NCBI GenBank assembly: GCA_030390025.1
Contig: JASTWF010000335.1
Span: forward strand, 248,001 to 312,000
Direction: 5' to 3'
From: Squalus acanthias
Lineage: Eukaryota
Length of the DNA: 64,000 nt
Both the position numbers and the translations under genes were made by a program. This document shows positions 7,024 to 47,714 of the stretch, piece after piece (the stretch's first letter is position 1; the number at the start of each line of letters is the position of its first letter). The notes under the pieces are model-generated. The model searched no databases and was not told the origin of the DNA. It saw only the letters and a program-made list of their open reading frames with translations.

Positions 7024-10000
7024 AGGTCGATGATCAGCCGTGAACCCCCTCACTCCTGTCCTGCCCCGCCCCCTCACTCCTGCCCCGCCCTCACTCCTGC
7101 CCCGCCCCCTCACTCCTGCCCCGCCCCCTCACTCCTGTCCTACCCCTCACTCCTGCCCCGCCCCCTCACTCCTGTCCTACCCCTCACTCCTGCCCCGCCC
7201 CCTCACTCATGCCCCGCCCCCTCACTCCTGCCCCGCCCCCTCACTACAGCCCCGCCCTCACTCCTGCCCCGCACTCTCACTCCTGCCCCGTCCCCTCACT
7301 CCTGCCCCGCCCTCACTCCTGCCCCGCGCCCTCACTCCTGCCCCGCCCCCTCACTCCTGCCCCGCCCCCTCACTCCTGCCCCACCCCCTCACTCCTGCCC
7401 CGCCCTCTCATTACTGCCCCGCCCCCTCACTCCCGTCCCGCCCTCACTCCTGCCCCGCCCCCGCACTCCTGCCCCGCCCCCTCACTCCTGCCCCACCCCC
7501 TCACTCCTGCCCCGCCCCATCAATCCTGCCCCGCCCCCTCACTCCTGCCCCGCCCCCTCACTCCTGCCCCGCCCCCTCACTCCTATCCTACCCCCCTCAC
7601 TACTGCCCCGCCCCCTCACTCCTGCCCCACCCCCTCACTCCTGCCTCGCCCCCTCACTCCGGCCCCGCCCCCTCACTCCGCCCCGCCCCCTCACTCCGGT
7701 CCTACCCCCCTCACTCCTGCCCCGCCCCCTCACTCCTGCCCCGCCCCCTCACTCCGGCCCCGCCCCCTCACTCCTGTCCCGCCCTCACTCCTGCCCAGCC
7801 CTCTCTCTCCTTCCCCGACCCCTCACTCCTGCCCCGCCCCCACTCCTGTCCCACCCCCTCACTCCTGCCCCGCCCTCTCACTCCTGTCCCGCCCTCTCAC
7901 TCCTGCCCCGCCCCCTCACTCCTGCCCCGCCCCTTCACTCCTGCCCCGCCCCCTCACTCCTGCCCCGCCACCTCACTCCTGCCCCGCCCCCTCACTCCTG
8001 CCCCGCCCCCTCACTCCTGCCCCGCCCTCACTCCTGTCCCACCCCCTCACTCCTGCCCCGCCCTCTCACTCCTGCCCCACCCCCTCACTCCTGCCCCGCC
8101 CCCCCCTCACTCCTGCCCCGCCCCCTCACTCCTGCCCCGCCCCCTCACTCCTGCCCCGCCCCCTCACTCCTGTCCTACCCCCATTCCTGCCCCGCCCCCT
8201 CACTCCTGTCCTACCCCCTCACTCCTGCCCTGCCCCCTCACTCCTGTCCTACCCCCTCACTCCTGCCCCGCCACCTCACTCCTGCCCCGCCCCCTCACTC
8301 CTGCCCCGCCCTCACTCCTGCCCCGCCCCCTCACTCCTGCCCCACCCTCTCACTCCTGCCCCACCCCCTCACTCCTGCCCCGCCCCCCCCTCACTCCTGC
8401 CCCGCCCCCTCACTCCTGCCCCGCCCCCTCACTCCTGCCCCGCCCCCTCACTCCTGTCCTACCCCCATTCCTGCCCCGCCCCCTCACTCCTGTCCTACCC
8501 CCTCACTCCTGCCCTGCCCCCTCACTACTGCCCCGCCCCCTCACTACTGCCCCGCCCCCTCACTCTTGCCCCGCCCTCTCACTCCTGACCCTTGCCTCCT
8601 CACTCCTGACCCACCCCTCCCCTTGCCCCGCCCCCTCACTCCTGACCCGCCCCTCCCCTTGCCCCGCCCACTCACTCCTGTCCCCCCTTGCCCCGCCCCC
8701 TCAGTCCTGCCCCCTTGCCCCGCCCCCTCACTCCTGACCCTTGCCTCCTCACTCCTGACCCGCCCCTCCCTTTGCCCCGCCCCCTCACTCTTGCCCCCAC
8801 CCTCCTGCCACGCCCCCACACTGTTGCCCCGCCCCCACTCTAGCCCCACACCCCACCAAACCCCCTCACCCTTGCCCCGCCCCTCCCTCAACCTTGCCAT
8901 GCTCCGTCCCTCCTGCCGCGCACCTCAGCTTTGTCCCGCCCCCTCCCCACCTGCCCCGTCTCTCTCGCTCCTGCCCCGCCTCACCCTCTTACCCCGCCCC
9001 TCACTCTTCCCCATCCGCAACCTCTTGCCCCACCCACTGCCATGCCCCTTGCACCTTTGTCCAGTCCCACCCTCTTGGCCAGCTCCCTCACCCTTGCCCC
9101 GCCCTCACACTCCTTCCCCGCCCCTCCAGCATGCCCCAATCCCTGCGTCACCTCTCTGTCCTGTGGCGCCCCTCACTCTTTCCCCCACCACTCCCCCTTG
9201 CTCCGCCCCCACCCGCTTTCCCACCCCCATTCCTTTCCCGCCGCGACCTCCTGCCCTGTCCTTCACCCTTGCCCCTCCCCCTTCCCACCTTACATTGCCC
9301 TTCAGTCCTGCCCCGCCCCCCACCCCTCCCTCTGGCCACACCGCCTCATCTTTGCCCCTCACCATTGTCCTCCCTCCTGCCCCACCCCTACCCCTCACCT
9401 ACCCTTCACGTCTCACTTTTGCTCCTCTCTCCTGCCCCACCACTCCCTCCCTCCCTCTCACCCTTCCCCGCTCACCCTTGCCCATCCTTTCTGCCCAGTC
9501 CCCTACCATTGCCCTTCTCGCCAGCCCCGTCCCTACCTCCTGCCCTGCCCCTTCACTCATGCCCCACCCCCTCACCATTGCACCTCCCTCCAACCCCGCC
9601 CCCTCACCTTGCCTCTCACTCCTGCCCCACCCATCACTCCTGCCCCGCCCTTTCCCATTGCCCCACCCCTCTCCCCTTGCCCCACTCCTCACGCCTGCCC
9701 CTCCCCCCACTCCTACCCCGACCTTGCCTCGCCCCCTCACTCCTGCCCCCCCTTGCGCCACCCCTCACTCCTGACCCGCTCCTCCCCTTGCCCTGCCCCC
9801 CCACTCCTGACCCGCCCCTCCCCTTCCCCCGCCCCCTCACGCCTGCCCCTCCCCCCACTCCTACCCCACCCCTTGCCCCGCCCCCTCACTCCTGCCCCCC
9901 CTTGCGCCACCCCTCACTCCTGACCCGCTCCTCCCCTTGCCCTGCCCCCTCACTCCTGACCCTTGCCTCCTCACTCCTGACCCGCCCCTCCCCTTGCCCC

Positions 10001-12705
10001 GCCGCCTCACTCCTGACCCTTGGCCCGCCCACATCTGCCCTCCTTGCCCCGCCCCCTCACTCCTGACTCGCCCTTGCGCCGCCCCCTCACTCCTGACCCT
10101 TGCCCCGCCCCCTCACTCCTGACCCGCCCCTCCCTTTGCCTCGCCCCCTCACACTTGCCCCCAGCCTCCTGCCATGCCCCCACACTCTTGCCCCGTCCCC
10201 ACTCTTGCCCCACACCCCGCCAAACCCCCTCACCCTTGCCCCGCCCCTCCCTCAACCTTGCCATGCTCCCTCCCTCCTGCCCGCACCTCAGCTTTGTCCC
10301 GCCCCCTCCCCACCTGCCCCGTCTCTCTCGCTCCTGCCCCGCCTCACCCTCTTACCCCGCCCCTCACTCTTCCCCATCCGCAACCTCTTGCCCCACCCAC
10401 TGCCATGCCCTTGCACCTTTGTCCAGTCCCACCCTCTTGGCCAGCCCCCTCACCCTTGCCCCGCCCTCACACTCCTTCCCCGCCCCTCCAGCATGCCCCA
10501 ATCCCTGCGTCACCTCTCTGTCCTGTGGCGCCCCTCACTCTTTCCCCACCACTACCCCTTGCTCCGACCCCACCCGCTTTCCCACCCCATTCCTTCCCCG
10601 CCGCGACCTCCTGCCCTGTCCTTCACCCTTGCCCCTCCCCCTTCCCACCTTACATTGCCCTTCAGTCCTGCCCTGCCCCCCACCCCTCCCTCTGGCCACA
10701 CCGCCTCATCTTTGCCCCTCACCATTGTCCTCCCTCCTGCCCCACCCCTACCCCTCACCTACCCTTCACGTCTCACTTTTGCTCCTCTCTCCTGCCCCAC
10801 CACTCCCTCCCTCTCACCCTTCCCCGCTCACCCTTGCCCATCCTTTCTGCCCAGTCCCCTACCATTGCCCTTCTCGCCAGCCCCGTCCCTCCCTCCTGCC
10901 CTGCCCCTTCACTCATGCCCCACCCCCTCACCATTGCACCTCCCTCCAACCCGCCCCCTCACCTTGCCTCTCACTCCTGCCCCGCCCCTTGCCCCACCCA
11001 TCACTCCTGCCCCGCCCTTTCCCATTGCACCGCCCCTCTCCCCTTGCCCCACTCCTCACGCCTGCCCCTCCCCCCACTCCTACCCCACCCCTTGCCCCGC
11101 CCCCTCACTCCTGCCCCCCCTTGCGCCACCCCTCACTCCTGACCCGCTCCTCCCCTTGCCCTGCCCCCCCACTCCTGACCCGCCCCTCCCCTTGCCCCGC
11201 CCACTCACTCCTGCCCCCTCACTCCTGCCCCCCTTGCCCCGCCCCCTCACTCCTGACCCTTGCCTCCTCACACCTGACCCGCCCCTCCCCTTGCCCCGCC
11301 CCCTCACTCCTGACCCGCCCCTCCCCTTGCCCCGCCCACTCACTCCTGCCCCCTCACTCCTGCCCCCCTTGCCCCGCCCCCTCACTCCTGACCCTTGCCT
11401 CCTCACTCCTGACCCGCCCCTCCCCTTGCCCCACCCCCTCACTCCTGACCCTTGCCCCGCCCACCCACTTCTGCCCCCCTTGCCCCGCCCCCTCACTCCT
11501 GACCCGCCCTTGCGCCACCCCCTCACTCCTGCCCCCTTGCTCCACAACCTCACTCCTGACCCTTGCCCCGCCCCCTCACTCCTGACCCGCCCCTCCCTTT
11601 GCCCCGCCCCCTCACACCTGACCCGCCCTTGCGCCGCCCCCTCACTCCTGCCCCCCTTGCTCCACAACCTCACTCCTGACCCGCCCCTCCCCTTGCCCCG
11701 CCCGCTCACTCCTGACCCCCATGCCCCGCCCCCTCACTCCTGACCCTTGCCCCACCCTCACTCCTGACCCGCCCCTCCCTTTGCCTCGCCCCCTCACTCC
11801 TGACCCGCCCCTCCCCTTGCCCCACCCCCTCACTCCTCCCCTCCCCCTCACTCTTGCCCCGCCCCCTCACTCCTGACCCGCCTCCTCACTCCTGACCCTT
11901 GCCCCGCCCCCTCACTTCTGACCCGCCCTTGCGCCGCCCCCTCACTCCTGCCCCCCTTGCTCCACAACCTCACTGCTGACCCTTGCCCCGCCCACTCACT
12001 TCTGCCCCCCTTGCCCCGCCCCCTCACTCCTGACCCGCCCTTGCGCCGCCCTCTCACTCCTGCCCCCCTTGCTCCACAACCTCACTCCTGACCCGCCCCT
12101 CCCCTTGCCCCGCCCCCTCACTCCTGAGCCTCCCTTGCCCCGCCCCCTCACTCCTGACCCCCTTGCCCCACCCCCTCACTCCTGAGCCTCCCTTGCCCCG
12201 CCCCCTCACTCCTGACCCCCTTGCCCCACCCCCTCACTCCTGACCCCCCTTGCCCCACCCTCTCACTCCTGCCCCCCTTGCTCCACAACCTCACTCCTGA
12301 CCCGCCCCTCCCCTTGCCCCGCCCCCTCACTCCTGAGCCTCCCTTGCCCCGCCCCCTCACTCCTGACCCCCTTGCCCCACCCCCTCACTCCTGAGCCTCC
12401 CTTGCCCCGCCCCCTCACTCCTGACCCCCTTGCCCCACCCCCTCACTCCTGAGCCTCCCTTGCCCCGCCCCCTCACTCCTGACCCCCTTGCCCCGCCCCC
12501 TCACTCCTGACCCCCTTGCCCCACCCCTCACTCCTGACCCCCTTGCCCCACCCCCTCACTCCTGACCCCCTTGCCCCTCCCCCTCACTCCTGACACGCCC
12601 CCTCACTCCTGACACTTGCCCCGCCCCCTGAATCCTGACCCTTGCCCCGCCCCCTCACTCCTGACCCTTGCCCCGCCCCCTCACTCCTGACCCTTTCCCC
12701 ACCCT
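7024..12705. repeat. C-rich satellite (about 19-bp unit ccccgccccctcactcctg and derivatives), about 5.7 kb
   Basis: Directly visible tandem units with extreme C/G strand skew. It contains an internal duplication of more than 1 kb (about 8735-9900 repeated at about 10100-11200, offset about 1.36 kb). Confidence 0.95.
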
Positions 12706-12782
12706 GAGAGTCAGTACCCGCTGATCCCCGGGCCCCCTCTTTCTCTCTCTTTCTCTCTCCCTCTCGGCCGGCCTCACCTCAC

Positions 12783-12900
12783 CTTCCCGCTTCCACCGCC
12801 GCTCGGCCCACCTCGCTTTCAAACCGGCGGCTCGCGCCTCGCGCTCCCGGCCAACCGCCCGCGAGCCTTCGGCCGCCCTGGTCCAGAGCGACGCGCCGAT
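12783..12900 (-). other. Candidate exon 1 of an unidentified minus-strand gene (start approximate)
   Basis: CpG-dense unique sequence ending in tandem donors AAG|GTGAGG (exon end 12783) and GAG|GTGAGG (exon end 12778). Confidence 0.55.
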
Positions 12901-12950
12901 GTCGTTTCTCCTTACGTCATTGGAACGCCCGCGCGGACGTCGCCCACGCC

Positions 12951-13350
12951 GTGGCCCACGTGGTGCGCTGCGGCGTTACACTCCCGCGCCCTGGCCCACG
13001 TGGTGCGCTGCGGCGTTCCACTCCCGCGCCCTGGCCCACGTGGTGCGCTGCGGCGTTACACTCCCGCGCCCTCGTCCACGTGGTGCGCTGCGGCGTTACA
13101 CTCCCGCGCCCTGGCCCACGTGGTGCGCTGCGGCGTTACACTCCCGCGCCCTGGCCCACGTGGTGCGCTGCGGCGTTCCACTCCCGCGCCCTCGTCCACG
13201 TGGTGCGCTGCGGCGTTCCACTCCCGCGCCCTGGCCCACGTGGTGCGCTGCGGCGTTCCACTCCCGCGCCCTCGTCCACGTGGTGCGCTGCGGCGTTACA
13301 CTCCCGCGCCCTGGCCCACGTGGTGCGCTGCGGCGTTCCACTGCCGCGCG
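12951..13350. repeat. 40-bp minisatellite, 10 units, one CCACGTGG per unit
   Basis: Unit tggtgcgctgcggcgtt(a/c)cactcccgcgccct(gg/cg)(c/t)ccacg. Confidence 0.95.
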
Positions 13351-13374
13351 CAGGCGCGGTGGGCGGGGCTCTTT

Positions 13375-13952
13375 GGTCTCCCCCAGCCCCCTTGATCTTT
13401 CCCCCATGGCCCTCCAAATTTCTCCCTTTTTAAGTATTTATCCAATTTTGAAAGCTCCTGTTGAATCTGCTTCCTTTCAGGCAGCGCATTCCAGAAAGCA
13501 ACAACTCGCTGCGTGGAAACATTTCTCCCCATCTCCCCCTCTGGTTCTTTTGCCAGTGACCTTTAAATCTGTGTCCTCTTTGTTTCCGACCCTCCCCCCC
13601 AGAGGAAACAATTTCTCCACATTTACTCTATCAAAACCCTTCATCATTTTGAACACCACCATTAAATCTCCCCTTAACCTTCTCTGCTCGAAGGAGAACA
13701 ATCCCAGCTTCTCCAGTCTCTCCACATAACTGAAGTCCCTCATCCCTGGTACCATTCTGGTCAATCTCCCCTTAACCTTCTCTGCTCCAAGGAGAACAAT
13801 CCCAGCTTCTCCAGTCTCTCCACATAACTGAAGTCCCTCATCCCTGGTACCATTCTGGTCAATCTCCCCTTAACCTTCTCTGCTCTAAGGAGAACAATCC
13901 CAGCTTTGCTAAGTCGCTCCACAGAACTGAAGTCCCTCATCCCTGGTACCTT
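13375..13952 (-). mobile_element. CR1 3' fragment with an internal triplication of about 98 bp
   Basis: TRMVPGMRDFSYVERLEKLGLFS.EQRRLRGD is encoded three times in tandem (units start near 13665, 13763 and 13861). Confidence 0.85.
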
Positions 13953-13984
13953 CTTTCCTAAGAGTACTTCCTGCAGTGAGCAGG

Positions 13985-16130: not shown

Positions 16131-16159
16131 CGTCGTGGTTTTTTTACAACTGAGTGACT

Positions 16160-16435: not shown

Positions 16436-16660
16436 CCACCGTTGCCCAAAAGTTAAATTTTCAGCCTTAAAATCATTCCCTTCTCTGCTGCACTTCCCAA
16501 CAGATCTCTTCTCTGGCCCGTCCAGCCAGATCTTTTGCCCAGGAACACCCAGTTTCTTCTCGACAGGTTGTCTGTTGACAGTGGAAGATGGCTATACTTG
16601 CCCTGTGCGAGTCTGCCATGAATCAAACTTACGGCATTGAGCGGAAGCAGTTTATTCAAT

Positions 16661-22274: not shown

Positions 22275-22563
22275 TATCTCCGTACATGTAACTTTAATAT
22301 TTAAATATATACAGAGCGCCTCTTCTCTCAGCAGGGGTATAAACACTCGAAGCATTTTCGCATCGATGGACATTTTCTGTTAAACCTGCTATTGCTGCGT
22401 TAAAGGCAAACGTTTCATTTCCCCACAGCGAGGCTCACGGGGTTTTTACCGTCCGTCTCCCGCCACCTGAGTAAAGCAACAGTGCATGTGTGTTTTTTTT
22501 CTTTCTTTCTAGGGCCTGGCATCGAAACTCCTGGGCGTCGCATCGTCTCAGGCCTCTTCATTA
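22275..22563 (-). other. ms4a: Putative terminal exon of the MS4A-like gene: TAA stop (22563-22561) and 3'UTR
   Basis: Acceptor cttgtcctttttaaacag|TAA. Unique sequence with an ATTAAA poly(A) signal variant at 22298-22293 on the minus strand. The 3' end is approximate. Confidence 0.62.
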
Positions 22564-22879
22564 CTGTTTAAAAAGGACAAGCCATGAATTAGCACGATCT
22601 ACAACGGAGAGAGCGCGTTGATTGTTAAAACAGGCGTGGGAGTCACATCGGGAAGGGTCCAGTGGCCCCATCAGGCTTCCTGCACCTACTGGAGTGCTCT
22701 TGCACAGTCCATGGGGGGTGTGGTGGAGGGAAACACACACACACACACACACACACACGTACAAAAACAGGCGGTTTCGCATCGGTTGCCTGTTATACAC
22801 TCCATCCCGTCAGTTCCGTTGACGACAGTAGAGCCGAACATCGGGCATGTCCTGTAACAATCAGCCAATGTGATTCCGC

Positions 22880-23945
22880 CTGTCGTACCATGGAGCACTC
22901 CCCTCCTCTTCTTTCAATAGCAGCCGTGGGATCTTTTAACTCCATCTGAGAGGGCAGACGGGGCCACGGTTTAACCGAAAGACGGCACCTCCGACAGTGC
23001 ACCACTTCCTCAGTACTGCCCTGTCGGTGGGGCAATACTGAGGAAGAGCTGCACTGTCGGAGGGGCAGTACTGAGGAAGAGCTGCACTGTCGGAGGGGCA
23101 GTACTGAGGGAGTGCTGCACTGTCGGAGGGGCAGTACTGAGGAAGAGCTGCACTGTCGGAGGGGCAGTACTGAGGAAGAGCTGCACTGTCGGAGGGGCAG
23201 TACTGAGGAAGAGCTGCACTGTCGGAGGGGCAGTACTGAGGGAGTGCTGCACTGTCAGAGGGGCAGTACTGAGGGAGCGCTGCACTGTTGGAGGGGCAGT
23301 ACTGAGGGTGTGCTGCACTGTTGGAGGGCCAGTACTGAGGGAGCGCTGCACTGTCGGAGGGGCAGTACTGAGGGAGCGCTGCACTGTCGGAGGGGCAGTA
23401 CTGAGGGAGCGTCGCACTGTCGGAGGGGCAGTACTGAGGGAGCGCTGCACTGTCGGAGGGCCAGTACTGAGGGAGCGCCGCACTGTCGGAGGGGCAGTAC
23501 TGAGGGAGCGCCGCACTGTCGGAGGGCCAGTACTGAGGGAGCGCTGCACTGTCGGAGGGGCAGTACTGAGGGAGCGCTGCGCTATCGGAGGGGCAGTACT
23601 GAGGGAGCATTGTACTGTCGGAGGTGCCGTCTTTCGGATGAGACGTTAAACCGAGGTTCCCCTTCTGCCCTCTCGGATGGACGTTAAAGATATCACGGCC
23701 ACTACTGGAAGAAGAGCAGGGCAGTTCTCCCCTGTGTCCTGGGGTAATATTTATCACTCAACCAAAATCACTAAAGCAGATGGTCTGGTCATTTATCACA
23801 TTGCTGTTTGTGGGAGCTTGCTGTGTGCAAATCGTCTGCTGCATTTCCTACATTACAACAGCGACTGCCCTTCAAAAGTACTTCATTGGCTACTAAAGCA
23901 CCTCGGGACATCCTGAGGTTGTGAAAGGCGCTATGTAAATGGGAG
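22880..23945. mobile_element. Two divergent Deu-domain SINE halves joined by a 33-bp minisatellite array
   Basis: Minus-strand Deu segment at about 22900-23020, plus-strand 33-bp array at 23025-23620, then plus-strand Deu core ggaggtgccgtctttcggatgagacgttaaaccgagg through the 3' end gtgaaaggcgctat (about 23935). Confidence 0.8.
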
Positions 23946-24892: not shown

Positions 24893-24985
24893 GTGCTTGC
24901 AGATGATGATGGCAACCAGAAGGGCGATGAAAATCTCCACCACAGAGTATAGAAAAAGCAAGGCCAATATAAACATCGGTGCTCG
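24893..24985 (-). CDS. ms4a: MS4A/CD20-family protein, coding exon 5 (TM4): RAPMFILALLFLYSVVEIFIALLVAIIICKH
   Basis: ttttattctttcccgcccccacag| ... CAC|gtaagt; 93 nt, phase 0/0. Hydrophobic helix with the MS4A-type L..S.LE..IA...C pattern. Confidence 0.85.
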
Positions 24986-28091: not shown

Positions 28092-28205
28092 TGCGACGTA
28101 AATGGCAGTGCCCGATCTAGACAGCAAGGTTGAGATGATGAACACCACAGCTCCGAGGGCCGCCGCGATCGCACTGACGAAATTAAAGATCATTGTCAAC
28201 TTTCT
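28092..28205 (-). CDS. ms4a: MS4A/CD20-family protein, coding exon 4 (TM3): RKLTMIFNFVSAIAAALGAVVFIISTLLSRSGTAIYVA
   Basis: ccctctgcgttgttttcag| ... GCA|gtaagt; 114 nt, phase 0/0. Matches the MS4A TM3 motif N..SA..A..G. Confidence 0.88.
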
Positions 28206-29929: not shown

Positions 29930-31362
29930 GGCGCGAGAGACATGCAAGTCTCTCTTTCCAGTCTCAAAGCGCATCACAACAATCAAGCACTTGTTTTTGT
30001 GAAGTGTAGTCACTGTTGAAATGTAGGAAAAACGGCAGCCAATTTGCACACAGCAAGCTCCCACAAACAGCAATGAGTTAAATGACCAGATCATCTGTTT
30101 TAGTGATTTTGGTTGAGTGATAAATATTACCCCGGGACACAGGGGAGAACACCACTGCTCTTCTTCCAGTAGTGGCCGTGATATCTTTTACTTCCATCCG
30201 AGAGGGCAGAAGGGGAACCTCGGTTTAACTTCTCATCCGAAAGACGGCATCTCCGACAGTACAATGCTGCTTCAGTACTTCCCCTCCGACAGTGCAGCGC
30301 TCCCTCAGTACTGACCCTCCGACAGTGCAGCGCTCCCTCAGTACTGACCCTCCGACAGTGCAGCGCTCCCTCAGTACTGACCCTCCGACAGTGCAGCGCT
30401 CCCTCAGTACTGACCCTCCGACAGTGCAGCGCTCCCTCAGTACTGACCCTCCGACAGTGCGGCGCTCCCTCAGTACGGCCCCTCCGACAGTGCAGCGCTC
30501 CCTCAGTACTGCCCCTCCGACAGTGCGGCGCTCCCTCAGTACTGCCCCTCCGACAGTGCAGCGCTCCCTCAGTACTGACCCTCCGACAGTGCAGCGCTCC
30601 CTCAGTACTGACCCTCCGACAGTGCGGCACTCCCTCAGTACTGACCCTCCGACAGTGCAGCGCTCCCTCAGTACTGCAGCTCCAACAGTGCAGTACTCCC
30701 TCAGTACTGACCCTCCGACAGTGCAGCGCTCCCTCAGTACTGACCCTCCGACAGTGCAGCGCTCCCTCAGTACGGCCCCTCCGACAGTGCAGCGCTGCCT
30801 CAGTACTGACCCTCCGACAGTGCAGCGCTCCCTCAGTACTGCCTCTCCGACAGTGCAGCGCTCCCTCAGTACTGCAGCTCCAACAGTGCAGTACTCCCTC
30901 AGTACTGCCCCTCCGACAGTGCAGCGCTCCCTCAGTACTGACCCTCCGACAGTGCAGCGCTCCCTCAGTACGGCCCCTCCGACAGTGCAGCGCTGCCTCA
31001 GTACTGACCCTCCGACAGTGCAGCGCTCCCTCAGTACTGACCCTCCGACAGTGCAGCGCTCCCTCAGTACTGACCCTCCGACAGTGCGGCGCTCCCTCAG
31101 TACTGTCCCCTCCCACAGTGCAGCGCTCCCTCAGTACTGACCCTCCGACAGTGCAGCGCTCCCTCAGTACTGACCCTCCGACAGTGCGGCGCTCCCTCAG
31201 TACTGTCCCCTCCGACAGTGCGGCTCTCCCTCAGTACTGACCCTCCGACAGTGCAGAGCTCCCTCAGTATTGGCACCGCGGAGTGATAGCCTGGATTATG
31301 GCGCTTGAGTCGGGTTTGAACCCACGCTCTGAGCCAGAGTGCTACCCACTGAGCCACGGCTG
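29930..31362 (-). mobile_element. Deu-domain SINE with an internal 33-bp array of about 30 units
   Basis: tRNA-like head at 31362-31275 (gtggctcagtgg...gggttcaaaccc), array at 31270-30255, Deu core and tail at 30255-29930. Confidence 0.88.
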
Positions 31363-31498: not shown

Positions 31499-31555
31499 CA
31501 CACGCTGCTCTGGTTGGTCGACATTTAGCATCGTCAGTGCTCCTGAAATCACAAA
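31499..31555 (-). CDS. ms4a: MS4A/CD20-family protein, coding exon 3 (end of TM2): FVISGALTMLNVDQPEQRV
   Basis: ttttgttgctttgtccctgttgcag| ... GTG|gtaagt; 57 nt, phase 0/0. FVISGAL corresponds to the MS4A F/Y-IISGSL motif. Confidence 0.9.
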
Positions 31556-36334: not shown

Positions 36335-36448
36335 CAGTATTCCTGACCACCATGGGACCCACAATCGAATGGCAACTACATACGGCGCCGAGAAATACAA
36401 TGGGACACCAAATGTCAAGTGAATCAGTCCCAGCATGATCTGCACAAC
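36335..36448 (-). CDS. ms4a: MS4A/CD20-family protein, coding exon 2 (TM1 to TM2): VVQIMLGLIHLTFGVPLYFSAPYVVAIRLWVPWWSGIL
   Basis: ctctgtgtcactctgttgtag| ... CTG|gtttgt; 114 nt, phase 0/0. LG|VVQIMLGL and PWWSG match the MS4A motifs LG..QI..GL and P.WGG. Confidence 0.9.
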
Positions 36449-36569: not shown

Positions 36570-38085
36570 AAAAGCTTTCCATTTATATACCACCTATCAC
36601 CTGAGGGAAAGGAATTTACACGGAGCCTTTCCCGACAGCAGGACACACACCAAAGCATTTTACAGGCAAGTGTAGTCAATGCTATAATGTAGGGAAATAC
36701 GGCAGCCAATCTGCGCACAGCAAGGTCCCAAAAATAGCAATGAGATAATAACCACATCATCTGTTTTTTTTAAGTGACGTTGGTTGAGGGATAAATATTA
36801 CGCACAGGACACCAGGGAGAATTACCGGCTCTTTTTCCAATAGTGGCCGTGGGATCTTTTACAGTCACCTGAGAGGGCAGACGCGGCCTCGGTTTAACGT
36901 CTCATCCGAAAAACGGCATCTCCGACAGTGCAGCGCTCCCTCAGTACTGCCCCTCCGACAGTGCAGCGCTCCCTCAGTACTGACCCTCCGACAGTGCAGC
37001 GCTCCCTCAGTACTGCCTCTCCGACAGTGCAGCGCTCCCTCAGTACTGCCTCTCCGGCAGTGCAGCGGAGCTCCCTCAGTACTGCCCCTCCGACAGTGCG
37101 GCGCTCCCTCAGTACTGCCTCTCCGACAGTGCGGCGCTCCCTCAGTACTGCCTCTCCGACAGTGCGGCGCTCCCTCAGTACTGCCTCTCCGACAGTGCGG
37201 CGCTCCCTCAGTACTGCCTCTCCGACAGTGCGGCGCTCCCTCAGTACTGTCCCTCCGACAGTGCAGCGCTCCCTCAGTACTGTCCCTCTGACAGTGCAGC
37301 GCTCCCTCAGTACTGATCCTCCGATAGTGCAGCACTCCCACAGTACTGATCCTCCGACAGTGCAGCGCTCCCTCAGTACTGATCCTCTGACAGTGCAGCG
37401 CTCCCTCAGTACTGCCCCTCCCACAGTGCAGCTCTCCCTCAGTACTGCCCCTCCGACAGTGCAGCGCTCCCTCAGTACTGCCCCTCCGACAGTGCAGCTC
37501 TCCCTCAGTACTGCCCCTCCGACAGTGCAGCGCTCCCTCAGTACTGCCCCTCCGACAGTGCAGCGCTCCCTCAGTACTGACCCTCCGACAGTGCAGCTCT
37601 CCCTCAGTACTGCCCCTCCGACAGTGCAGCGCTCCCTCAGTACTGACCCTCCGACAGTGCAGCGCTCCCTCAGTACTGCCCCTCCGACAGTGCAGCGCTC
37701 CCTCAGTACTGCCCCTCCGACAGTGCAGCGCTCCCACAGTACTGATCCTCCGATAGTGCAGCGCTCCCTCAGTACTGCCCCTCCGACAGTGCGGCGCTCC
37801 CTCAGTACTGCCCCTCCGATAGTGCAGCGCTCCCTCAGTACTGCCCCTCTGACAGTGCGGCGCTCCCTCAGTACTGCCCCTCCGACAGTGTAGCGCTCCC
37901 TCAGTACTGATCCTCCGACACTGCAGCGCTCCCTCAGCACTGCCTCTCCCATAGTGTAGTGCTCCCTTAGCACTGGCACCAGGCAGTGTCGGCCTGGATT
38001 CTGGGGCTCGAGTCGCTAGAGTGGGGCTCGAACGCACGACCTTCTGGCTGAGAATCGAGAGCAACACCACTGAGCCACGGCTGAC
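36570..38085 (-). mobile_element. Deu-domain SINE with an internal 33-bp array of about 32 units
   Basis: Head at 38085-37980 (gtggctcagtgg...gttcgagccc), array at 37975-36920, Deu core and tail to about 36570. Confidence 0.88.
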
Positions 38086-38148: not shown

Positions 38149-38223
38149 GCCAAGATGTCTCATGCGTCGTGGTTCTTCACGCAGTAGATTTGCAGGAGAG
38201 CAGGCATCAAAGACAGATGACAT
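38149..38223 (-). CDS. ms4a: MS4A/CD20-family protein, coding exon 1: MSSVFDACSPANLLREEPRRMRHLG (exon 38226-38149)
   Basis: cttcctttccaaacag|GAGATG ... GGC|gtaaga. Only this frame is open. LLREEP...LG resembles the MS4A L+GEP+.LG pre-TM1 motif. Confidence 0.82.
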
Positions 38224-38277
38224 CTCCTGTTTGGAAAGGAAGTCTATATTAGTATACGCCAAGATAAACTAGCGCGC

Positions 38278-38522: not shown

Positions 38523-38894
38523 GTGCAATTTGCCCCGCTGTTAAAGCGTGGACGCATGTCTTCAAGCGAGAGGTTGTTGCAAGGGAGTTACAGCAGGTCA
38601 GCCCCACCTCAGGCTTTTCTGATGTGTTCATCTGGCGCTCCGAAAGTGCAAATTCTGGCCTCTTGCCTGATCAGGAAATCAGCCCCAACACCCTTCTACA
38701 GTGCCGAGAACTTGGGCCACGTATGCACTGCCCTGCTGAGAAACATTGCTTGCTTGCACGGAGACCCAATCCGAGGATGATGTGCAGACATTGACTGAAA
38801 GGTGTCAGGCCACACCGGAAGTGACAGTACGGGAAGTACTGGCCTTCAGATTCTCCCGAAACAAAGGACCGTGTATATTGGCATCCCAGCCCCT

Positions 38895-39548
38895 TGCCTG
38901 CTTCTTCTCAACACCTTCCCTCCCCTTCTTTCCGCAGCCCTCCCTCTCCTCACTCACTTCCCTCTCAAATTTCCAAACCTTCACCCAGCCTCTATCCCCT
39001 CTGTCTTCCTTCCCTCCCCCTTCCCTCCCCTCCTCTAACATCCTCTTCTCGCTCTGCTTTTGTCTCTTCCTTCTTCTGCCCTTCCCCTCCCTACTTCTCT
39101 GCAATTACCTTCCCCTCCACCACACACCCCATCCCTCCTTCCCTCTCCCTAATCCACTCCTCTCCCTCTTTCTGCCCTCCAATTCCCCCTCCTGGTCCCT
39201 TTCCTCCTCCCCTTGTCCACACTCCCTTCCTCCTCCCCTCTCCCTTCCTTCCCCTTCGCACCTCGTCTCCTCTCTGCACCAGCCTCCTCCCTCACTTTAC
39301 TCTCCTCCCTCCTCTCCCCTTTCCTATTCCCTACCCACACCCCATCACTCCACCCCTCTTCTCCTCGCCCTCCCTTTTCCACTTCTCTTCTCCCCACTTC
39401 GACTGTCCCCTACCTCTTCACTAACTCTCTCTTTCTTCACCCTCCTGTCTTCCCTTCTCTGATTGCCGCCTTTTCCATCCCCTCTCTTCTCCTCCCCTTC
39501 TCTCTCTTCTATTGCCCCTACCTAACGCCTTCTCCTTCCTTCCCCTGC
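38895..39548. repeat. Polypyrimidine/polypurine low-complexity tract
   Basis: About 650 bp that is almost entirely C/T on the plus strand. Confidence 0.85.
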
Positions 39549-39884
39549 CGTATTATTCCAAGACCTGCCTTGTGACAACGGCAATGTTCTGATGAATGGT
39601 CATCGACGAACTCTGTTTCTCTCTCCACAGATGTTGCCTGACCAGCTCTGTATTTCCACTTTTTATTGCCGCTTTCCAGATTACAAAGTTTTGTAGCAAT
39701 GCTAAGAGCATTTTGTAAACCTAACAACGAACCCCAACATCCGAATCACGAACCAAAAACACCCGAACCACTAACTCCAGCAACCTAACCACGAAACCTA
39801 ACACTGCCCTTAATCCCAACACCCGAACCACTGCCCTTAATCCCAACACCCGAACCACGACCCTGAACCATGAATATCCCGAAC

Positions 39885-42800
39885 CAAATCCCGACACCCT
39901 GTCCCTCACCCAGACTCCCCGTCCCTCGCCCCGACTCCCCGTCCCTCGCCCCGACTCCCCGTCCCTCGGCCCGACACCCCGTCCCTCGCCCCGACTCCCC
40001 GTCCCTCGCCCCGACTCCCCGTCCCTCGCCCCGACACCCCGTCCCACGCCCCGACTCCCCGTCCCACGCCCCGACTCCCCGTCCCACGCCCCGACTCCCC
40101 GTCCCACGCCCCGACTCCCCGTCCCACGCCCCGACTCCCCGTCCCACGCCCCGACTCCCCGTCCCACGCCCCGACTCCCCGTCCCTCGCCCCGACTCCTC
40201 CTCCCTCGCCCCGACTCCCCGTCCCTCGCCCCGACTCCCAGTCCCTCGCCCCGACTCCCCGTCCCTCGCACCGACTCCCCGTCCCTCGCCCCGACTCCCC
40301 GTCCCACGATCCGACTCCCCGTCCCTCGCCCCGACTCCCCTGTCCCTCGCCCCGACTCCCTGTCCCTCGCCCCGACTCCCTGTCGCTCGCCCCGACACCC
40401 TGTCCCTCGCCCCGACTCCCTGTCCCACGCCCCGACTCCCTGTCCCTCGCCCCGACTCCGTCCCTCGCCCCGACTCCCTGTCCCACGCCCCGACATCCTG
40501 TCCCTCGCCCCGACTCCCTGTCCCTCGCCCCGACTCCCTGTCCCACGCTCCGACTCCCTGTCCCACGCCCCGACTCCCTGTCCCTCGCCCCGACATCCTG
40601 TCCCTCGCCCCGACACCCTGTCCCTCGCCCCGACTCCCTGTCCCTCGCCCCGACTCCCTGTCCCTCGCCCCGACACCCTGTCCCTCGCCCCGACACCCTG
40701 TCCCTCGCCCCGACTCCCGGTCCCACGCCCCGACTCCCTGTCCCTCGCCCCGACTCCGTCCCTCGCCCCGACTCCGTCCCACGCCCCGACTCCCTGTCCC
40801 TCGCCCCGACACCCTGTCCCTCACCCCGAAACCCTGTCCCTCGCCCCGACACCCTGTCCCTCGCACCGACACCCCGTCCCTCGCCCCGACTCCCCGTCCC
40901 TCGCCCCGACTCCCCGTCCCACGCCCCGGCTCCCCGTCCCTCGCCCCGACTCCGTCCCTCGCCCCGACTCCGTCCCTCGCCCCGACTCCGTCCCTCGCCC
41001 CGACTCCCTGTCCCTCGCCCCGACACCCTGTCCCTCACTTCGACTCCCTGTCCCTCACCCCGACTCCCTGTCCCTCACCCCGACTCCCTGTCCCTACCCT
41101 GTCCCTCGCCCCGACTCCCTGTCCCACGCCCCGACACCCTGTCTCTCAGCCCGACACCCTGTCCCTCGCCCCGACACCCTGTCCCTCGCCCCGACACCCT
41201 GTCCCTCGCTCCGACTCCCTGTCCCCCGCCCCGACTCCCTGTCCCCCGCCCCGACTCCCTGTCCCCCGCCCCGACTCCCTGTCCCCCGCCCCGACTCCCC
41301 GTCCCCCGCCCCGACTCCCCGTCCCTCGCCCCGACTCCCTGTCCCTCGCCCCGACTCCCTGTCCCTCGCCCCGACTCCCTGTCCCTCGCCCCGACTCCCT
41401 GTCCCTATCCTGTCCCTCGCCCCGACTCCCTGTCCCACGCCCCGACTCCCTGTCCCTCGACCCGACTCCGTCCCACGCCCCGACTCCCGGTCCCTCGCCC
41501 CGAAACCCCGTCCCTCGCCCCGACACCCCGTCCCTCGCACCGACTCCCCGTCCCTCGCCCCGACTCCCCGTCCCTCGCCCCGACTCCCCGTCCCTCGCAC
41601 AGACACCCCGTCCCTCGCCCCGACTCCCCGTCCCACGCCCCGACTCCGTCCCACGTCCCGACTCCCTGTCCCACGCCCCGACTCCCTGTCCCTCGCCCCG
41701 ACTCCCTGTCCCTCGCCCCGACTCCCTGTCCCTCGCCCCGACTCCCTGTCCCTCGCCCCGACTCCCTGTCCCTCGCCCCGACTCCCTGTCCCTCGCCCCG
41801 ACTCCCTGTCCCTCGCCCCGACTCCCTGTCCCTCGTTCCGACTCCCTGTCCCTCGCCCCGACTCCCTGTCCCTCGCCCCGACTCCCTGTCCCTCGCCCCG
41901 ACTCCCTGTCCCTCGCCCCGACTCCCTGTCCCACGAACCGACTCCCTGTCCCTCACCCGACTCCGTCTCACACGCCCCGACTCCCTGTCCCTCGCCCCGA
42001 CTCCCTGTCCCACAAACCGACTCCCTGTCCCTCACCCCGACTCCCTGTCCCGCACCCCGACTCACTGTCTCTCACCCCGACTCCCTGTCCCTCACCCCGA
42101 CACCCTATCCCTGACCTCGACACCCTATCCCTGACCCCGCCACCCTATCCCTGACCCCGCCACCCTATCCCTGACCCCGGCACCCTATCCCTGATCCCGG
42201 CACCCTATCCCTGACTCCGACACCCTATCCCTGACTCTAACCCTATCCCTAACACCGACACCCTATCCCTGACCCCGATACCCTATCCCTGACCTCGACA
42301 CCCTATCCCTGACCCCGACACCCTATCCCTGACTCTGAGACCCTTTCCCTAACACCGACACCCTATCCCTGACCCCGACACCCTAATCCTGACCCCGACA
42401 CCCTATCCCTGACCCCGACACCCTATCCCTGACCCCGACACCCTATCCCTGACCCCGACACCCTATCCCTGACCCCGACACCCAACCCTGACCCCGACAC
42501 CCTATCGCTGACTCTGAGACCCTATCCCTGACCCCGACACCCTATCCCTGACTCCGACACCCTATCCCTGACCCCGACACCCTATCCCTGACTCCGACAC
42601 CCTATCCCTGACTCCGACACTCTATCCCTGACCTCGACACCCTATCCCTGACCCCGACACCCTATCCCTGACCCCGACAGCCTATCCCTGACCTCGACAC
42701 CCTATCCCTGACCCCGACACCCTATCCCTGACCCCGACACTCTATCCCTGACGTCGACACTCGAACTCTGACACCAAACACTCGAAGCCTGACCCCCAAC

Positions 42801-45800
42801 ACTCGAACCCTGACCCCGACAATCGGACCCTGACCCCGACATCTTATCCCTGACCCCAACACCCTATGCCTGACCTCGACACCCTATCCCTGACCCCGAC
42901 ACACTATCCCTGACCCCGACACCCTATCCCTGACCTCGACACCCTATCCCTGACCCCGACACCCTATCCCTTACATCGACACCCTATCCCTGACCCCGAC
43001 ACCCTATCCCTGACCTCGACACCCTATCCCTGACCCCGACACCCTATCCCTTACATCGACACCCTATCCCTGACCCCGACACCCTATGCCTGACCTCGAC
43101 ACCCTATCCCTGACCCCGACACCCTATCCCTGACCCCGACACCCTATCCCTGACCCCGACACCCTATCCCTGACCCCGACACCCTATCCCTGACCCCGAC
43201 ACCCTATCCCTGACCCCGACACCCTATCCCTGACTCTGAGACCCTATCCCTGACCCCGACACCCTATCCCTGACCCCGACACACTATCCCTGACTCCGAC
43301 ACCCTATCCCTGACCTCGACATCCTATCCCCGACCCCGACACCCTATCCCTGACCTCGACACCCTATCCCTGACCCCGACACCCTATCCCTGACCCCGAC
43401 ACCCTATCCCTGACTCTGAGACCCTATCCCTGACCCCGACACCCTATCCCTGACCCCGACACCCTATCCCTGACTCTGAGACCCTTTCCCTAACACCGAC
43501 ACCCTATCCCTGACCCCGATACCCTATCCATGACCCCGACACCCTATCCCTGACCCCGACACCCTATCCCTGACTCTGAGACCCTTTCCCTAACACCGAC
43601 ACCCTATCCCTGACCACGACACCCTATCCCTGACCCCGACACCCTATCCCTGACCCCGACACCCTATCCCTGACTCTGAGACCCTATCCATGACCCCGAC
43701 ACCCTATCCCTGACTCTGAGACCCTATCCCTGACCCCGACACCCTATCCCTGACTCTGAGACCCTATCCATGACCCCGACACCCTATCCCTGACCCCGAC
43801 ACCCTATCCCTGACCCCGACACCCTATCCCTGACTCTGAGACCCTATCCCTAACACCGACACCCTATCCCTGACCCCGACACCCTATCCCTGACTCCGAC
43901 ACCCTATCCCTAACACCGACACCCTATCCCTGACTCTGAGACCCTTTCCCTAACACCGACACCCTATCCCTGACCCCGACATCCTATCCATGACCCCGAC
44001 ACCCTATCCCTGACCCCGACACCCTATCCCTGACCCCGACACCCTATCCCTGACTCTGAGACCCTATGCCTAACACCGACACCCTATCCCTGACCCCGAC
44101 ACCCTATCCCTGACCCCGACACCCTATCCCTGACCCCGACACCCTATCCCTGACCCCGAGACCCTATCCCTCACACCGACACCCTATCCCTGACTCCGAC
44201 ACCCTATCCCTGACTCCGACACTCTGTCCCTGACCTCGACACTCTGTCCCTGACCTCGACACTCGAACTCTGACCCCAAACACTCGAAGCCTGACCCCCA
44301 ACACTCGAACCCTGACCCCGACAATCGGACCCTGACCCCGACACCCTATCCCTGACCCCGACACCCTATCCCTTACATCGACACCCTATCCCTGACCCCG
44401 ACACCCTATCTCTTACACCGACACCCTATCCCTGACCCCGGCACCCTATGCCTGACCTCGACACCCTATCCCTGACCCCAACACCCTATCCTTGAACTCG
44501 ACACTCGAACCCTGACCCCCCAACACTCAAACCCTGACCCTCAACACTCGAACTCTGACCCCTCACCCTATCCCTGACCCCGACACTTGAACCCTGACCC
44601 CGACACGCTATCCCTCTCCCCGACACCCTATCCTGACCCCGACACCCTATCCCTGACCCCGACACCCTATCCATCTCTCTGACACCCTATCTCTCTCCCC
44701 GACACCCTATCCATCTCTCCGACACCCTATCCCTGACCCCGACACCCTATCTCTCCCCCCGACACCCTGTCCATCTCCCCGACACCCTATCAGCGAATCA
44801 GCGAATCAGCGAATAGTACAGCACAGAAGGAGGCCATTCGGCCCATCGAGTATGTGCCGGCTCTTTCGAAGAGCAACCCAGTTAGTCCCACTCCCCTGCT
44901 CATTCCCCAAACCCCTGCAATGTTTTCTCCTTCCAGTATTTATCCAATTCCCTTTTGAAGGCTGCTATTGAATCTGTATCCACCAGCCTATCAGGCAGTG
45001 TATTCCAAACCACTCGTTACATAAACAGGTTTTTCCTCTATCAATCTCAGTTTCTCACACACACAGAATCCCCACAGTACAGATAGAGGCCATCTCGGCC
45101 CATCGAGCCTGCACCGACACATATCCCACCCTATCCCCGTGTATTTAATTCCCCCTAACATATCCCAACCTATCCCCGTAACCCCACATATTTAATCCCC
45201 CCCGAACACTATCCCTTCCCCAGACACCCTATCAATCTCCCCGACACCCTATCAATCTTCCCGACAGCCTATCCCTGACCCCGACACTTGAACCCAGACC
45301 ACCACACCCTATCCATCTCCCCGACACCCTATCCCTCCCCCCGACACCCTATCCCTCCCCCGACACCCTATCCCTCCCCCGACACCCTATCCCTCCCCCG
45401 ACACCCTATCCCTCCCCCGACACCCTGTCCATCTCCCCAACACCATAACCCTCCCTGCAACACCCTATCAATCTCCCCGACACCCTATCGCTCCCTATCC
45501 CTCCCCCGACACCCTGTCCATCTCCCCGACACCCTATCCCTCTCCCCGACACCCTATCCATCTGCCCGACACCCTATCCCTCCCCCCGAGACCCTATCCA
45601 TCTGCCCGACACCCTATCCCTCTCCCCGACACCCTATCCCTCCCCCCCGACACCCTATCCCTCCCCCCGACACCCTATCCCTCCGGATCCCTTCCCCCGA
45701 CACCCTATCCCTCTCCCCGACACCCTATCCCTCCCCCCGACACCCTATCCCTCCGGATCCCTTCCCCCGACACCCTATCCCTCTCCCCGACACCCTATCC

Positions 45801-46670
45801 ATCTGCCCGACACCCTATCCCTCCCCCCGAGACCCTATCCATCTGCCCGACACCCTATCCCTCTCCCCGACACCCTATCCCTCCCCCCCGACACCCTATC
45901 CCTCCAGATCCCTTCCCCCGACACCCTATCCCTCTCCCCGACACCCTATCCCTCCCCCCGACACCCTATCCCTCCGGATCCCTTCCCCCGACACCCTATC
46001 CATCTCCCCGACACCCTATCCCTCCCCCCGACACCCTATCCCTCCGGATCCCTCCCCCCCGAGACCCTATCCATCTGCCCGACACCCTATCCCTCTCCCC
46101 GACACCCTATCCCTCCTCCCGACACCCTATCCCTCCCCTCGACACCCTATCTCTCTCCGCGACACCCTATCCCTCCGGATCCCTTCCCCCGACACCCTAT
46201 CCATCTCCCCGACACCCTATCCCTCCCCCCGACACCCTATCCCTCCGGATCCCTTCCCCCGACACCCTATCCATCTGCCCAACACCCTATCCCTCCCCCC
46301 GACAATCTCCCCAACACCCTTTCCCTGGCCCCGACACCCTATCCCTGACCCCGACACCCTATCACTGACCTCAACACTCTAACCCAGAACCCGGACCCAG
46401 ACCCCGATACCCGGCACCCCGACCCTCGAACCCTGACCCTATACCCGACAATGCAACACTGGATTCCTGACCCCAACAATGCAACACTGGATTCTTTACC
46501 CCGACAATGCAACACTGGATTCCTGACCCCAACATTGGAACGCTGAACCAACACTCGAATCCTGACCCCTATACCTGGCCCCAGACCCCAGCACCCGAAC
46601 CCCCGACACTCGAACCCCGACCCTCGAAACCTGACCCCAACACTCGAACCCTGACCCCAGCACACTCTCC
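39885..46670. repeat. C-rich 20-bp satellite domain of about 6.8 kb in three successive variants
   Basis: ccgactccc(c/t)gtccctcgcc (39.9-42.1 kb), ccgacaccctatccctgacc (42.1-44.7 kb) and ccgacaccctatccctcccc (45.2-46.35 kb). It is interrupted at 44790-45210 by CR1-tail and V-SINE fragments. Confidence 0.95.
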
Positions 46671-47038
46671 CTAAACCACGTGGGCCCCACCGGCGATTGT
46701 GACGGCGCCAACAATTGTGACGCCACCGGTCGCGGCGACCTCACTGGCTATTGTGACGTCACCTGCCATTGTGACGCCACCGGCCGTTGGCACGTCACCG
46801 GCTATTGTGACGTCACCTGCCATTGTGACGCCGCCGGCGCGGGCGGGCCGGTTTGCGGCTCTGATGAAAGGCGGACCGGCAAGGACCATGTCTCGACGCC
46901 CCTTTCCTCTCCACGGCCTCTCGACGCCCCATCACCTCTCTCTTTCTCCCTTTTTTTTGGTTCTCACCCAATCCTCCCCCCCCCCCGACATCCCATCACC
47001 GTTTCCCGTCCCCATGGCCCCCGGCCGCCACCTCTCAC

Positions 47039-47150
47039 CTCCCAGCTGTCGCTCCGCCGGAGCCTCCCTCGCACCTGCGCAAATCAAGCGGCAGCCCCCA
47101 CGTGGTTAACATTTGAAGGCGCGCCGCGCGCTCTAAACCGCCGCCGGTCA
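47039..47150 (-). other. Candidate non-coding exon 1 (start approximate)
   Basis: Donor GGGAG|GTGAGA inside the CpG island. The nearest downstream coding acceptor is 38226. Confidence 0.55.
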
Positions 47151-47178
47151 CGTCAGGAGGGAAGGGGCGGGGCCAAGC

Positions 47179-47540
47179 GTTAACGCCTGCGCACAACGTG
47201 CCGCGGGTGCGGGGGGAGGGAGGGGGGCGGGGCAAGGTGTTAACGCCTGCGCACAACGTGCCGCGGCACTTAACGCCTGCGCACAACGTGCCGCGGGTGC
47301 GGGGGGAGGGAGGGGGGCGGGGCAAGGTGTTAACGCCTGCGCACAACGTGCCGCGGCAGCGGGGGGAGGGAGGGAGGCGGGGCAAGGTGTTAACGCCTGC
47401 GCACAACGTGCCGCGGTAGCAGGGCAAGGTGTTAACGCCTGCGCACAACGTGCCGCGGTAGCAGGGCAAGGTGTTAACGCCTGCGCACAACGTGCCGCGG
47501 TAGCAGGGCAAGGTGTTAACGCCTGCGCACAACGTGCCGC
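47179..47540. repeat. Promoter VNTR: 8 copies of ttaacgcctgcgcacaacgtgccgc in 30/42/60-bp units
   Basis: Cores at about 47181, 47241, 47271, 47331, 47391, 47433, 47475 and 47517. Confidence 0.92.
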
Positions 47541-47714
47541 TGGAGCCACCTGACGCATGCGCAGCAGCACGTGGCCGGCTTCCCCCATCCCCCCAGCCCT
47601 GAGTTGCCATCAATGGGCAGCAAAGGAGGTTGTAATGTTGGATTGCTGCATGGGCGATTTGCAACCAGACACTTTTCCCATTGCAACTGCCCGTACTTTA
47701 TGCCGATGCCCTTT

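What the first reader, a model, noticed from the sequence alone, without database searches (positions are those of the whole stretch)
7024..47585. Two neighbouring genes share a 'TF-site VNTR, CpG exon 1, multi-kb G-skewed satellite' layout
Seen: at both 12.7-13.4 kb and 46.7-47.6 kb a CpG island has a site-multiplying tandem array upstream on the minus strand. A short exon 1 follows, then almost at once a 5.7-kb or 6.8-kb satellite whose G-rich strand is the non-template strand. The two satellites have different units but the same polarity and position. Established: G-skew downstream of CpG promoters favours R-loops and G-quadruplexes, as in Ig switch regions. Inference: transcription-coupled or promoter-focused recombination may drive expansion at these sites, or the arrays may be kept as regulatory elements.
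Basis: partly seen in the sequence, partly recalled or inferred. Interest (0 to 1): 0.7.

Follow-up and report, generated by a model that had tools for sequence, protein, structure and literature searches.

The report
Satellites born at shark promoter edges
Two related membrane-protein genes in a shark each carry a 6-7 kb guanine-rich repeat found nowhere else in the genome just behind their likely promoter; repeat blocks also crowd the edges of many other promoter-like sites sampled, so these two likely grew as passengers from the G-rich start of the first intron and are probably not a special shared device.

Summary
The layout is real in sequence: two CpG islands, upstream motif-multiplying VNTRs, minus-strand-only splice donors, and 5.7-kb and 6.95-kb satellites G-rich on the minus strand. 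The genes are tandem MS4A/CD20-like paralogs on the minus strand (30% identical) whose first coding exons need an upstream exon. Start sites and exon-1 splicing remain inferred; no RNA covered them. Both satellites are locus-private. In 77 independent promoter-like loci of this genome, 21 have a non-dispersed array starting within 1 kb (null 9.0; replication set 8 of 34 vs 4.1). The exact G-rich-downstream layout occurs at 5 of 77, C-rich at 2: not significant by my pre-set rule, and 0 of 34 in replication. First-intron starts are already G-rich on the sense strand (15 vs 3 of 51), so arrays probably inherit polarity from their seeds. A third paralog has its G-rich array on the other side. Verdict: a known kind of thing (G-rich intron-1 elements plus avian-type 'sequence stuttering') focused on promoter edges in a shark; R-loop drive or regulatory function unshown. 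The scan noted the same pattern in another shark genome.

The parts
6764..6848 (-). Predicted non-coding exon 2 of MS4A-like gene B (85 nt, AG...GT); its coding exons lie left of the window (L011:7427-7526 and beyond)
   Evidence: Sequence; unique DNA; no RNA support
7024..12700 (-). Satellite B, 5.7 kb, 19/28-bp G-rich units each with a GC box; homogeneous distal block, degenerate middle
   Evidence: exact dimer found 5 of 5 times inside this array genome-wide
12781..12940 (-). Predicted exon 1 of gene B in a CpG island; 5' end approximate; donor at 12780
   Evidence: start site inferred
12943..13349 (-). VNTR B, 40 bp x 10.2, one CACGTG per unit
22548..22598 (-). Gene A last coding exon (predicted)
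24893..24985 (-). Gene A coding exon (93 nt)
   Evidence: matching segment in P0002 by eye
28092..28205 (-). Gene A coding exon (114 nt)
31499..31555 (-). Gene A coding exon (57 nt)
36335..36448 (-). Gene A coding exon (114 nt), CD20-like
   Evidence: Pfam PF04103 E 3.7e-6, 27.5 bits vs cut-off 27.9; 66% to P0002
38149..38226 (-). Gene A first coding exon, ATG at 38223, preceded by a splice acceptor
   Evidence: 21/25 identical to the N-terminus of P0002, named MS4A4D-like in Pristiophorus japonicus
39720..46670 (-). Satellite A, 6.95 kb, 20-bp G-rich units in several sub-blocks, with CR1 and SINE 3' ends inserted near 44.8-45.2 kb
   Evidence: exact dimer found 19 of 19 times inside this array genome-wide
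46688..46842 (-). Degenerate 18-bp array (8.4 copies) with CRE-like TGACGTCA, between donor and satellite A
47037..47150 (-). Predicted exon 1 of gene A in a CpG island; 5' end approximate; donor at 47036
   Evidence: start site inferred; no RNA cover
47180..47540 (-). VNTR A, 30/42/60/90-bp units, 8 copies of an E-box-like/NRF1-like core

Best explanation
The two satellites are locus-private tandem arrays lying in the predicted first introns of two tandem MS4A-like paralogs, and they likely grew independently by local slippage or unequal repair from the G-rich sequence that normally follows a CpG-island exon-1 donor, inheriting its strand polarity and persisting as largely neutral passengers. 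Shown: gene identity and strand, local uniqueness of the units, enrichment of array edges near promoter-like sites, G-rich sense strand after predicted donors. Inferred: the islands are the start sites; island edges are break- or slippage-prone in this repeat-rich genome; the upstream VNTRs arise the same way and multiply transcription-factor motifs only because that is what promoter DNA contains; the G-sense orientation is also the tolerated one because the reverse would add polypyrimidine-AG acceptor mimics.
For: Units occur only at their own locus (19 of 19 and 5 of 5 exact dimers) and share one 12-mer with each other. Layered sub-blocks and a CR1/SINE insertion show stepwise local growth. 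Non-dispersed arrays of 500 bp or more start within 1 kb of the motif at 21 of 77 promoter-like loci vs pseudo-centre null 9.0 (p=0.0005); discovery 13 of 43 vs 4.9, replication 8 of 34 vs 4.1 (p=0.009); transposon-motif control 1 of 26 vs 0.8. Both sides are used (15 down, 9 up). First 100 nt after a predicted donor: 4 or more G-runs at 15 of 51 loci vs 4 or more C-runs at 3 of 51 (Wilcoxon p=0.008), control 0 vs 2 of 19; genes A and B have 7 G-runs each. Unrelated genes show the same donor-then-G-array layout (L106, L111, L113, L133). Acceptor-like sites: 0 and 0 on the sense strand vs 7 and 18 on the antisense. Motif VNTRs at 11 of 77 promoters, 6 not explained by the YY1 sampling.
Against: No RNA shows a start at either island. 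The coverage version of the enrichment test did not replicate (p=0.0002 discovery, 0.57 replication); the edge version excludes YY1-containing and 84-bp zinc-finger arrays, a choice made after seeing the data. Post hoc tests do show outward-pointing G strands (16 vs 7 arrays, p=0.047; 15 vs 6 loci, p=0.039), which an active transcription-coupled process also predicts. 'Non-dispersed' was verified genome-wide only for the two window satellites. Neutrality was not tested.
Confidence: 0.55

Rival explanations
1. Transcription-coupled R-loop/G4 formation, or promoter-directed meiotic breaks, actively drive expansion, so arrays grow preferentially with the G strand pointing away from the island.
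For: 146 and 46 G4 motifs on the sense strand, none on the other. Post hoc outward bias: 10 vs 1 at |skew|>=0.5 with a relaxed core filter (p=0.006). GC skew links to R-loops at human island promoters (PMC3787257, abstract). Species without functional PRDM9 recombine at promoters and islands, and elephant-shark PRDM9 is partial and slowly evolving (PMC5519329, passages).
Against: Pre-set test not significant (7 outward vs 3 inward, p=0.17) and no G-rich downstream case in 34 replication loci; one relaxed-filter case (L121) sits at an internal coding exon; C-rich and unskewed arrays also start at promoter edges (L055, L120, L056, L123). PRDM9 status of this genome not tested.
Confidence: 0.22
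2. The arrays are kept by selection as regulatory elements: VNTRs tune promoter strength by multiplying E-box/NRF1-like sites and the satellites act as intronic enhancers, pause sites or methylation barriers.
For: Every VNTR B unit keeps CACGTG and all 8 VNTR A cores keep their motif; satellite B units carry a GC box; human TERRA promoters use 29-bp repeats with NRF1 sites (PMC6600276, passages).
Against: High unit identity follows from recent expansion alone; unrelated units at each locus; most sampled promoters have no such array; paralog C differs; no conservation data.
Confidence: 0.1
3. The shared layout was inherited from one ancestral promoter module copied in the MS4A tandem duplications.
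For: Genes are paralogs with identical exon sizes. VNTR A (+) and VNTR B (-) share a ~25-nt core (unit-shuffle p=0.017). Island A shares a 38-nt, 82% match with island C in inverted orientation (score 40 vs best 29 of 101 promoter-like loci), including a 14-mer seen 8 times genome-wide, 3 of them here.
Against: Proteins only 38/126 identical; islands A and B do not align in gene orientation (p=0.36); the VNTR score (25) is not above real-promoter background (top 28); whole-island A vs C scores are not above background (2 of 77 as high).
Confidence: 0.07
4. The islands are not the start sites of these genes (CpG-rich repeats or orphan islands), or array lengths are assembly artefacts, so the layout is a coincidence in repeat-rich DNA.
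For: No RNA evidence at exon 1; 35% of the surrounding 264 kb is tandem repeat; island C lacks a strong minus-strand donor.
Against: Both first coding exons begin with an acceptor; donors only on the gene strand at A and B; no N gap in the window; structured sub-blocks are unlike collapse artefacts.
Confidence: 0.06

Closest known systems
GrIn1, G-rich intron-1 elements (Eddy and Maizels 2008, PMC2275096; abstract and section 19 read)
   Same: [quoted passage not shown]
   Different: GrIn1 spans about 100 nt; here it runs into multi-kb tandem arrays. The paper finds zebrafish first introns not G-rich and dates the element near the fish-frog split; this shark sample has it.
'Sequence stuttering' on avian dot chromosomes (Hron et al. 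2026, PMC12954441; abstract, section 7 part 1, section 9, term passages read) and G4-rich repeat introns of GC-rich avian genes (PMC6792250, passages)
   Same: Imperfect, locally born tandem arrays of tens of bases confined to introns of intact genes in GC- and repeat-rich DNA; G4 or meiotic mechanisms proposed.
   Different: Reported for birds (and gerbils), said not found in other vertebrates; main text has 0 hits for 'promoter' and 'shark'. Here arrays concentrate at promoter edges, introns are also full of LINEs/SINEs, and length polymorphism is untested.
Human TERRA 61-29-37 promoters (PMC6600276, passages)
   Same: CpG-rich tandem repeats with NRF1-type sites upstream of a G-rich transcribed repeat.
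   Different: Here the repeat is intronic in a coding gene and not TTAGGG (9 and 0 copies); not at a chromosome end.
Immunoglobulin switch regions (recalled)
   Same: Several kb of G-rich non-template repeat after a short non-coding exon.
   Different: Consensus units lack AGCT/WGCW motifs; downstream genes are MS4A-like, not Ig constant regions.

Membership tests
GrIn1 | [quoted passage not shown] | tested here: met
   7 G-runs vs 0-1 C-runs at both predicted donors
GrIn1 | The intron is the first intron of a real transcript | tested here: inconclusive
   Donors only on the gene strand and first coding exons need an upstream exon; no RNA cover
GrIn1 | Forms G-quadruplex in DNA or RNA | not testable with these tools
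   Motif counts only
Sequence stuttering | Local origin of the repeat | tested here: met
   19 of 19 and 5 of 5 exact dimers lie in their own arrays
Sequence stuttering | Imperfect tandems confined to introns, exons intact | tested here: met
   (intron assignment predicted)
Sequence stuttering | Length variation among individuals | not testable with these tools
   One assembly only
Sequence stuttering | Location on dot-type microchromosomes | tested here: inconclusive
   Unplaced 533-kb contig, 35% tandem repeat over 264 kb; similar arrays also on C1, C2, C10
Sequence stuttering | Occasional copying of exon edges | not tested
   No formal exon-vs-intron screen run
TERRA-type subtelomeric promoter | Canonical TTAGGG tract downstream at a chromosome end | tested here: not met
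   9 TTAGGG (103 TCAGGG) in satellite A, 0 in B; coding exons follow
Ig switch region | Dense AGCT/WGCW motifs and downstream Ig constant exons (definition recalled) | tested here: not met
   Consensus units lack them; genes are CD20-like
MS4A/CD20 genes | CD20 domain and family exon pattern | tested here: met
   PF04103 E 3.7e-6 on one exon, 0.4 bit under the cut-off; two other exons gave no family; ortholog named MS4A4D-like; shared 114/57/114/93 exons

The most novel reading that the evidence does not exclude
In sharks the edges of CpG-island promoters are genome-wide birthplaces of locus-private satellites, driven by transcription-linked G4/R-loop breakage or promoter-directed recombination so that G strands point away from the island. 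'Sequence stuttering' and G-rich intron-1 elements would then be old jawed-vertebrate traits, not bird or tetrapod novelties.
Probability: 0.3. Interest if true: 0.65.

Novelty: new variant of a known kind. Interest (0 to 1): 0.4.

Why it matters
The pair itself is ordinary, but it exposes a measurable trend: about a quarter of sampled shark promoter-like sites have a non-dispersed array starting within 1 kb. That gives hundreds of natural replicates for asking where minisatellites are born and whether transcription or recombination at promoters drives them. It extends phenomena described for birds and tetrapods to cartilaginous fish, and warns that 5' ends of shark genes will be hard to assemble and annotate. 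Searches (open-licence PMC and bioRxiv only; supplements not read) listed no paper describing this in sharks.

Tried and rejected
RNA: no RNA holder on record was listed; contigs of four guessed-RNA runs gave no cover over exon 1 of gene A; neither is evidence. Exon 1 or 2 of gene B was not examined with reads. Word-based homolog search with one exon found nothing. The open frame through the 18-bp array was rejected as an N-terminal exon because the ortholog starts at the 38223 ATG. Transposon origin of the satellites rejected. A telomere origin is not supported for satellite B (variant hexamers 143 vs shuffle mean 25.6 but all one variant, 0 TTAGGG) and is only suggestive for A. Homology of islands A and B, and whole-island homology of A and C, not above background. 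A sense-strand bias of SINE/LINE-derived arrays inside the MS4A genes (9 vs 2, p=0.065) did not repeat in the promoter sample (2 vs 4). The count had merging errors (half of satellite B scored as outside, one array lost) and was replaced. Two motif variants were poor markers: one had a high control count, one was dominated by a multicopy family. The first clustering (61 loci) merged unrelated families and was replaced.
Full report
Setting. The window lies on an unplaced 533-kb contig of a 3.7-Gb genome. Its repeats and orthologs indicate a shark. Tandem repeats cover 35% of the 264 kb examined.

Observation. TRF and composition confirm both satellites (7024-12700 and 39720-46670), their G-rich minus strand (skew +0.72 and +0.64; 46 and 146 G4 motifs vs 0 and 0), and both VNTRs (12943-13349; 47180-47540). 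The unique DNA between VNTR and satellite is CpG-rich (o/e 1.3 and 0.96), and consensus-like donors occur only on the minus strand. The satellite follows the donor by about 85 bp at B but about 370 bp at A, where an 18-bp CRE-like array intervenes. Satellite A contains CR1 and SINE 3' ends (element names recalled).

The genes. Both are MS4A/CD20-like and lie on the minus strand. Gene A has exons at 38226-38149, 36448-36335, 31555-31499, 28205-28092, 24985-24893 and 22598-22548. One exon hits Pfam CD20 at E 3.7e-6, just under the cut-off; two others gave no family. A Pristiophorus protein named MS4A4D-like matches the first coding exon at 21 of 25 residues. Gene B's coding exons lie left of the window with the same sizes and are 38 of 126 identical to A. 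Both first coding exons start with a splice acceptor, so an upstream exon is required and the islands are the natural candidates; this step is inferred, since no RNA covered it. The cluster holds at least two more paralogs. Paralog C has an island about 10 kb upstream of its first coding exon, but its G-rich array lies on the far side and is C-rich on the gene strand, with an unskewed 155-bp array on the near side. Its orientation is less certain because it lacks a strong minus-strand donor.

Origin of the arrays. Exact dimers of each unit occur only within their own array genome-wide (19 of 19; 5 of 5). The two satellites share one 12-mer and show layered sub-blocks. They are therefore locally born and independently grown. 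Islands A and B do not align in gene orientation. A shared VNTR core in opposite orientation scores p=0.017 against shuffles but not above real promoters. A 38-nt inverted match between islands A and C exceeds all 101 background loci and includes a 14-mer with 3 of its 8 genome copies here, yet whole-island alignment is not above background. I leave it unexplained.

Genome sample. I used a YY1-type motif (recalled) as an oriented promoter marker: 708 hits vs 44 for the reversed control. I fetched 180 loci. I set aside 26 transposon-family cores, dropped 45 that failed a CpG filter and collapsed 32 paralogs, leaving 77: 43 discovery and 34 replication, the latter chosen only by place. The scoring rule was written after seeing the discovery loci and before the replication loci. 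By that rule, downstream G-rich 5, downstream C-rich 2, upstream G 1, upstream C 2 (p=0.23; outward vs inward p=0.17); replication alone 0, 0, 0, 1. Relaxed post hoc filters give 8 vs 2 of 100 (p=0.055) and up to 10 vs 1 outward (p=0.006), but one of those loci is an internal coding exon, so the marker is imperfect. Counting all non-dispersed skewed arrays within 4 kb gives 16 outward vs 7 inward (p=0.047), also post hoc. Placement is the firmer result: 24 of 36 array edges lie within 1 kb (expected 29%), and 21 of 77 loci have one vs 9.0 for pseudo-centres, 8 of 34 vs 4.1 in replication, 1 of 26 vs 0.8 in transposon controls. This excludes YY1-containing and zinc-finger arrays; the cruder coverage measure did not replicate (p=0.57). 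Motif-multiplying VNTRs occur at 11 of 77 loci, 5 of them YY1-type and favoured by the sampling; one locus (L106) shows the full layout.

Mechanism. After predicted donors, 15 of 51 loci have four or more G-runs in 100 nt vs 3 with C-runs (p=0.008; 26 of 77 had no donor by my rule), and both window genes have 7. Seeds are thus already polarised about as strongly as the arrays. The simplest model is local expansion at unstable island edges with polarity inherited from the seed, helped by a splicing filter: the reverse orientation would carry 7 and 18 acceptor-like sites vs none. Transcription-coupled G4/R-loop or promoter-directed recombination may supply the instability (PMC3787257 abstract; PMC5519329 passages) but neither is shown. 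Selection for function has no direct support.

Comparison. Closest are GrIn1 elements (PMC2275096, abstract and section 19; first met through passages of PMC2761265) and avian sequence stuttering (PMC12954441, abstract, section 7 part 1, section 9; PMC6792250 passages). TERRA promoters (PMC6600276 passages) and Ig switch regions (recalled) resemble the layout but fail membership. Repeats at human promoters are known (PMC3566118, search listing only). No supplements were read.

Verdict. A real layout and a local instance of a promoter-edge expansion tendency. The special pairing and the functional reading are not supported. New variant of a known kind; interest 0.4.

Noticed in passing
G000:C2617, about 225-402 kb (L009-L021 and window): Tandem cluster of at least four MS4A/CD20-like paralogs, all on the minus strand, plus a partial fifth exon further left. 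A, B and C have very short N-termini and upstream CpG islands; D has a long Pro/Gln-rich N-terminus and no clear island.
   Followed up: partly
window 46660-46851 and 39716-39916 vs L016:7228-8412: The 18-bp motif and the far end of satellite A resemble, in inverted orientation, the edge of island C and its GGGTTA-like array (38 nt at 82%; rare 14-mer). Possible old inverted duplication of a promoter edge; whole-island test negative.
   Followed up: partly
window 47180-47540 and 12943-13349: The two VNTR units share a ~25-nt E-box-like/NRF1-like core in opposite orientation; absent from 160 other loci but not above promoter background in score.
   Followed up: yes
L016:7293-8412: 1.1-kb telomere-like array (65 TTAGGG, 13/26-bp period) abutting island C.
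   Followed up: partly
51 sampled promoter loci (L052-L238): First-intron starts are G-rich on the sense strand in this shark (15 vs 3), although GrIn1 was reported absent from zebrafish and dated near the fish-frog split. Donors are predicted.
   Followed up: partly
L010:299-1865: A second GC-rich, G-on-sense 32-bp array in an internal intron of gene B, ending close to the next acceptor; polarity is not confined to intron 1.
   Followed up: no
window 3789-5475, 23016-23624, 30251-31269, 36920-37975, 55046-57041 and flanks: Dispersed 33- and 37-bp minisatellites are G-on-sense in 9 of 11 cases inside the MS4A genes vs 3 of 10 outside (Fisher p=0.03); not repeated in the promoter sample.
   Followed up: yes
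window about 44790-45240: CR1 and SINE 3' ends sit inside satellite A with short matching ends, suggesting insertion into an existing array.
   Followed up: no
window 61305-63650 (-): Open 781-aa RT-RNaseH-integrase frame of an LTR retrotransposon.
   Followed up: no
window 36334 and paralogous positions: The donor after the first 114-nt exon is weak in three paralogs (GTTTGT, GTTGGT, GTTTGT).
   Followed up: no
G000 C29 and many unplaced contigs: A multicopy family carrying a YY1-type motif accounts for most of 351 hits of one pattern.
   Followed up: no
L002-L004 (contig 148001-169431): A 38-bp AT-rich array of at least 21 kb begins about 80 kb left of the window.
   Followed up: no
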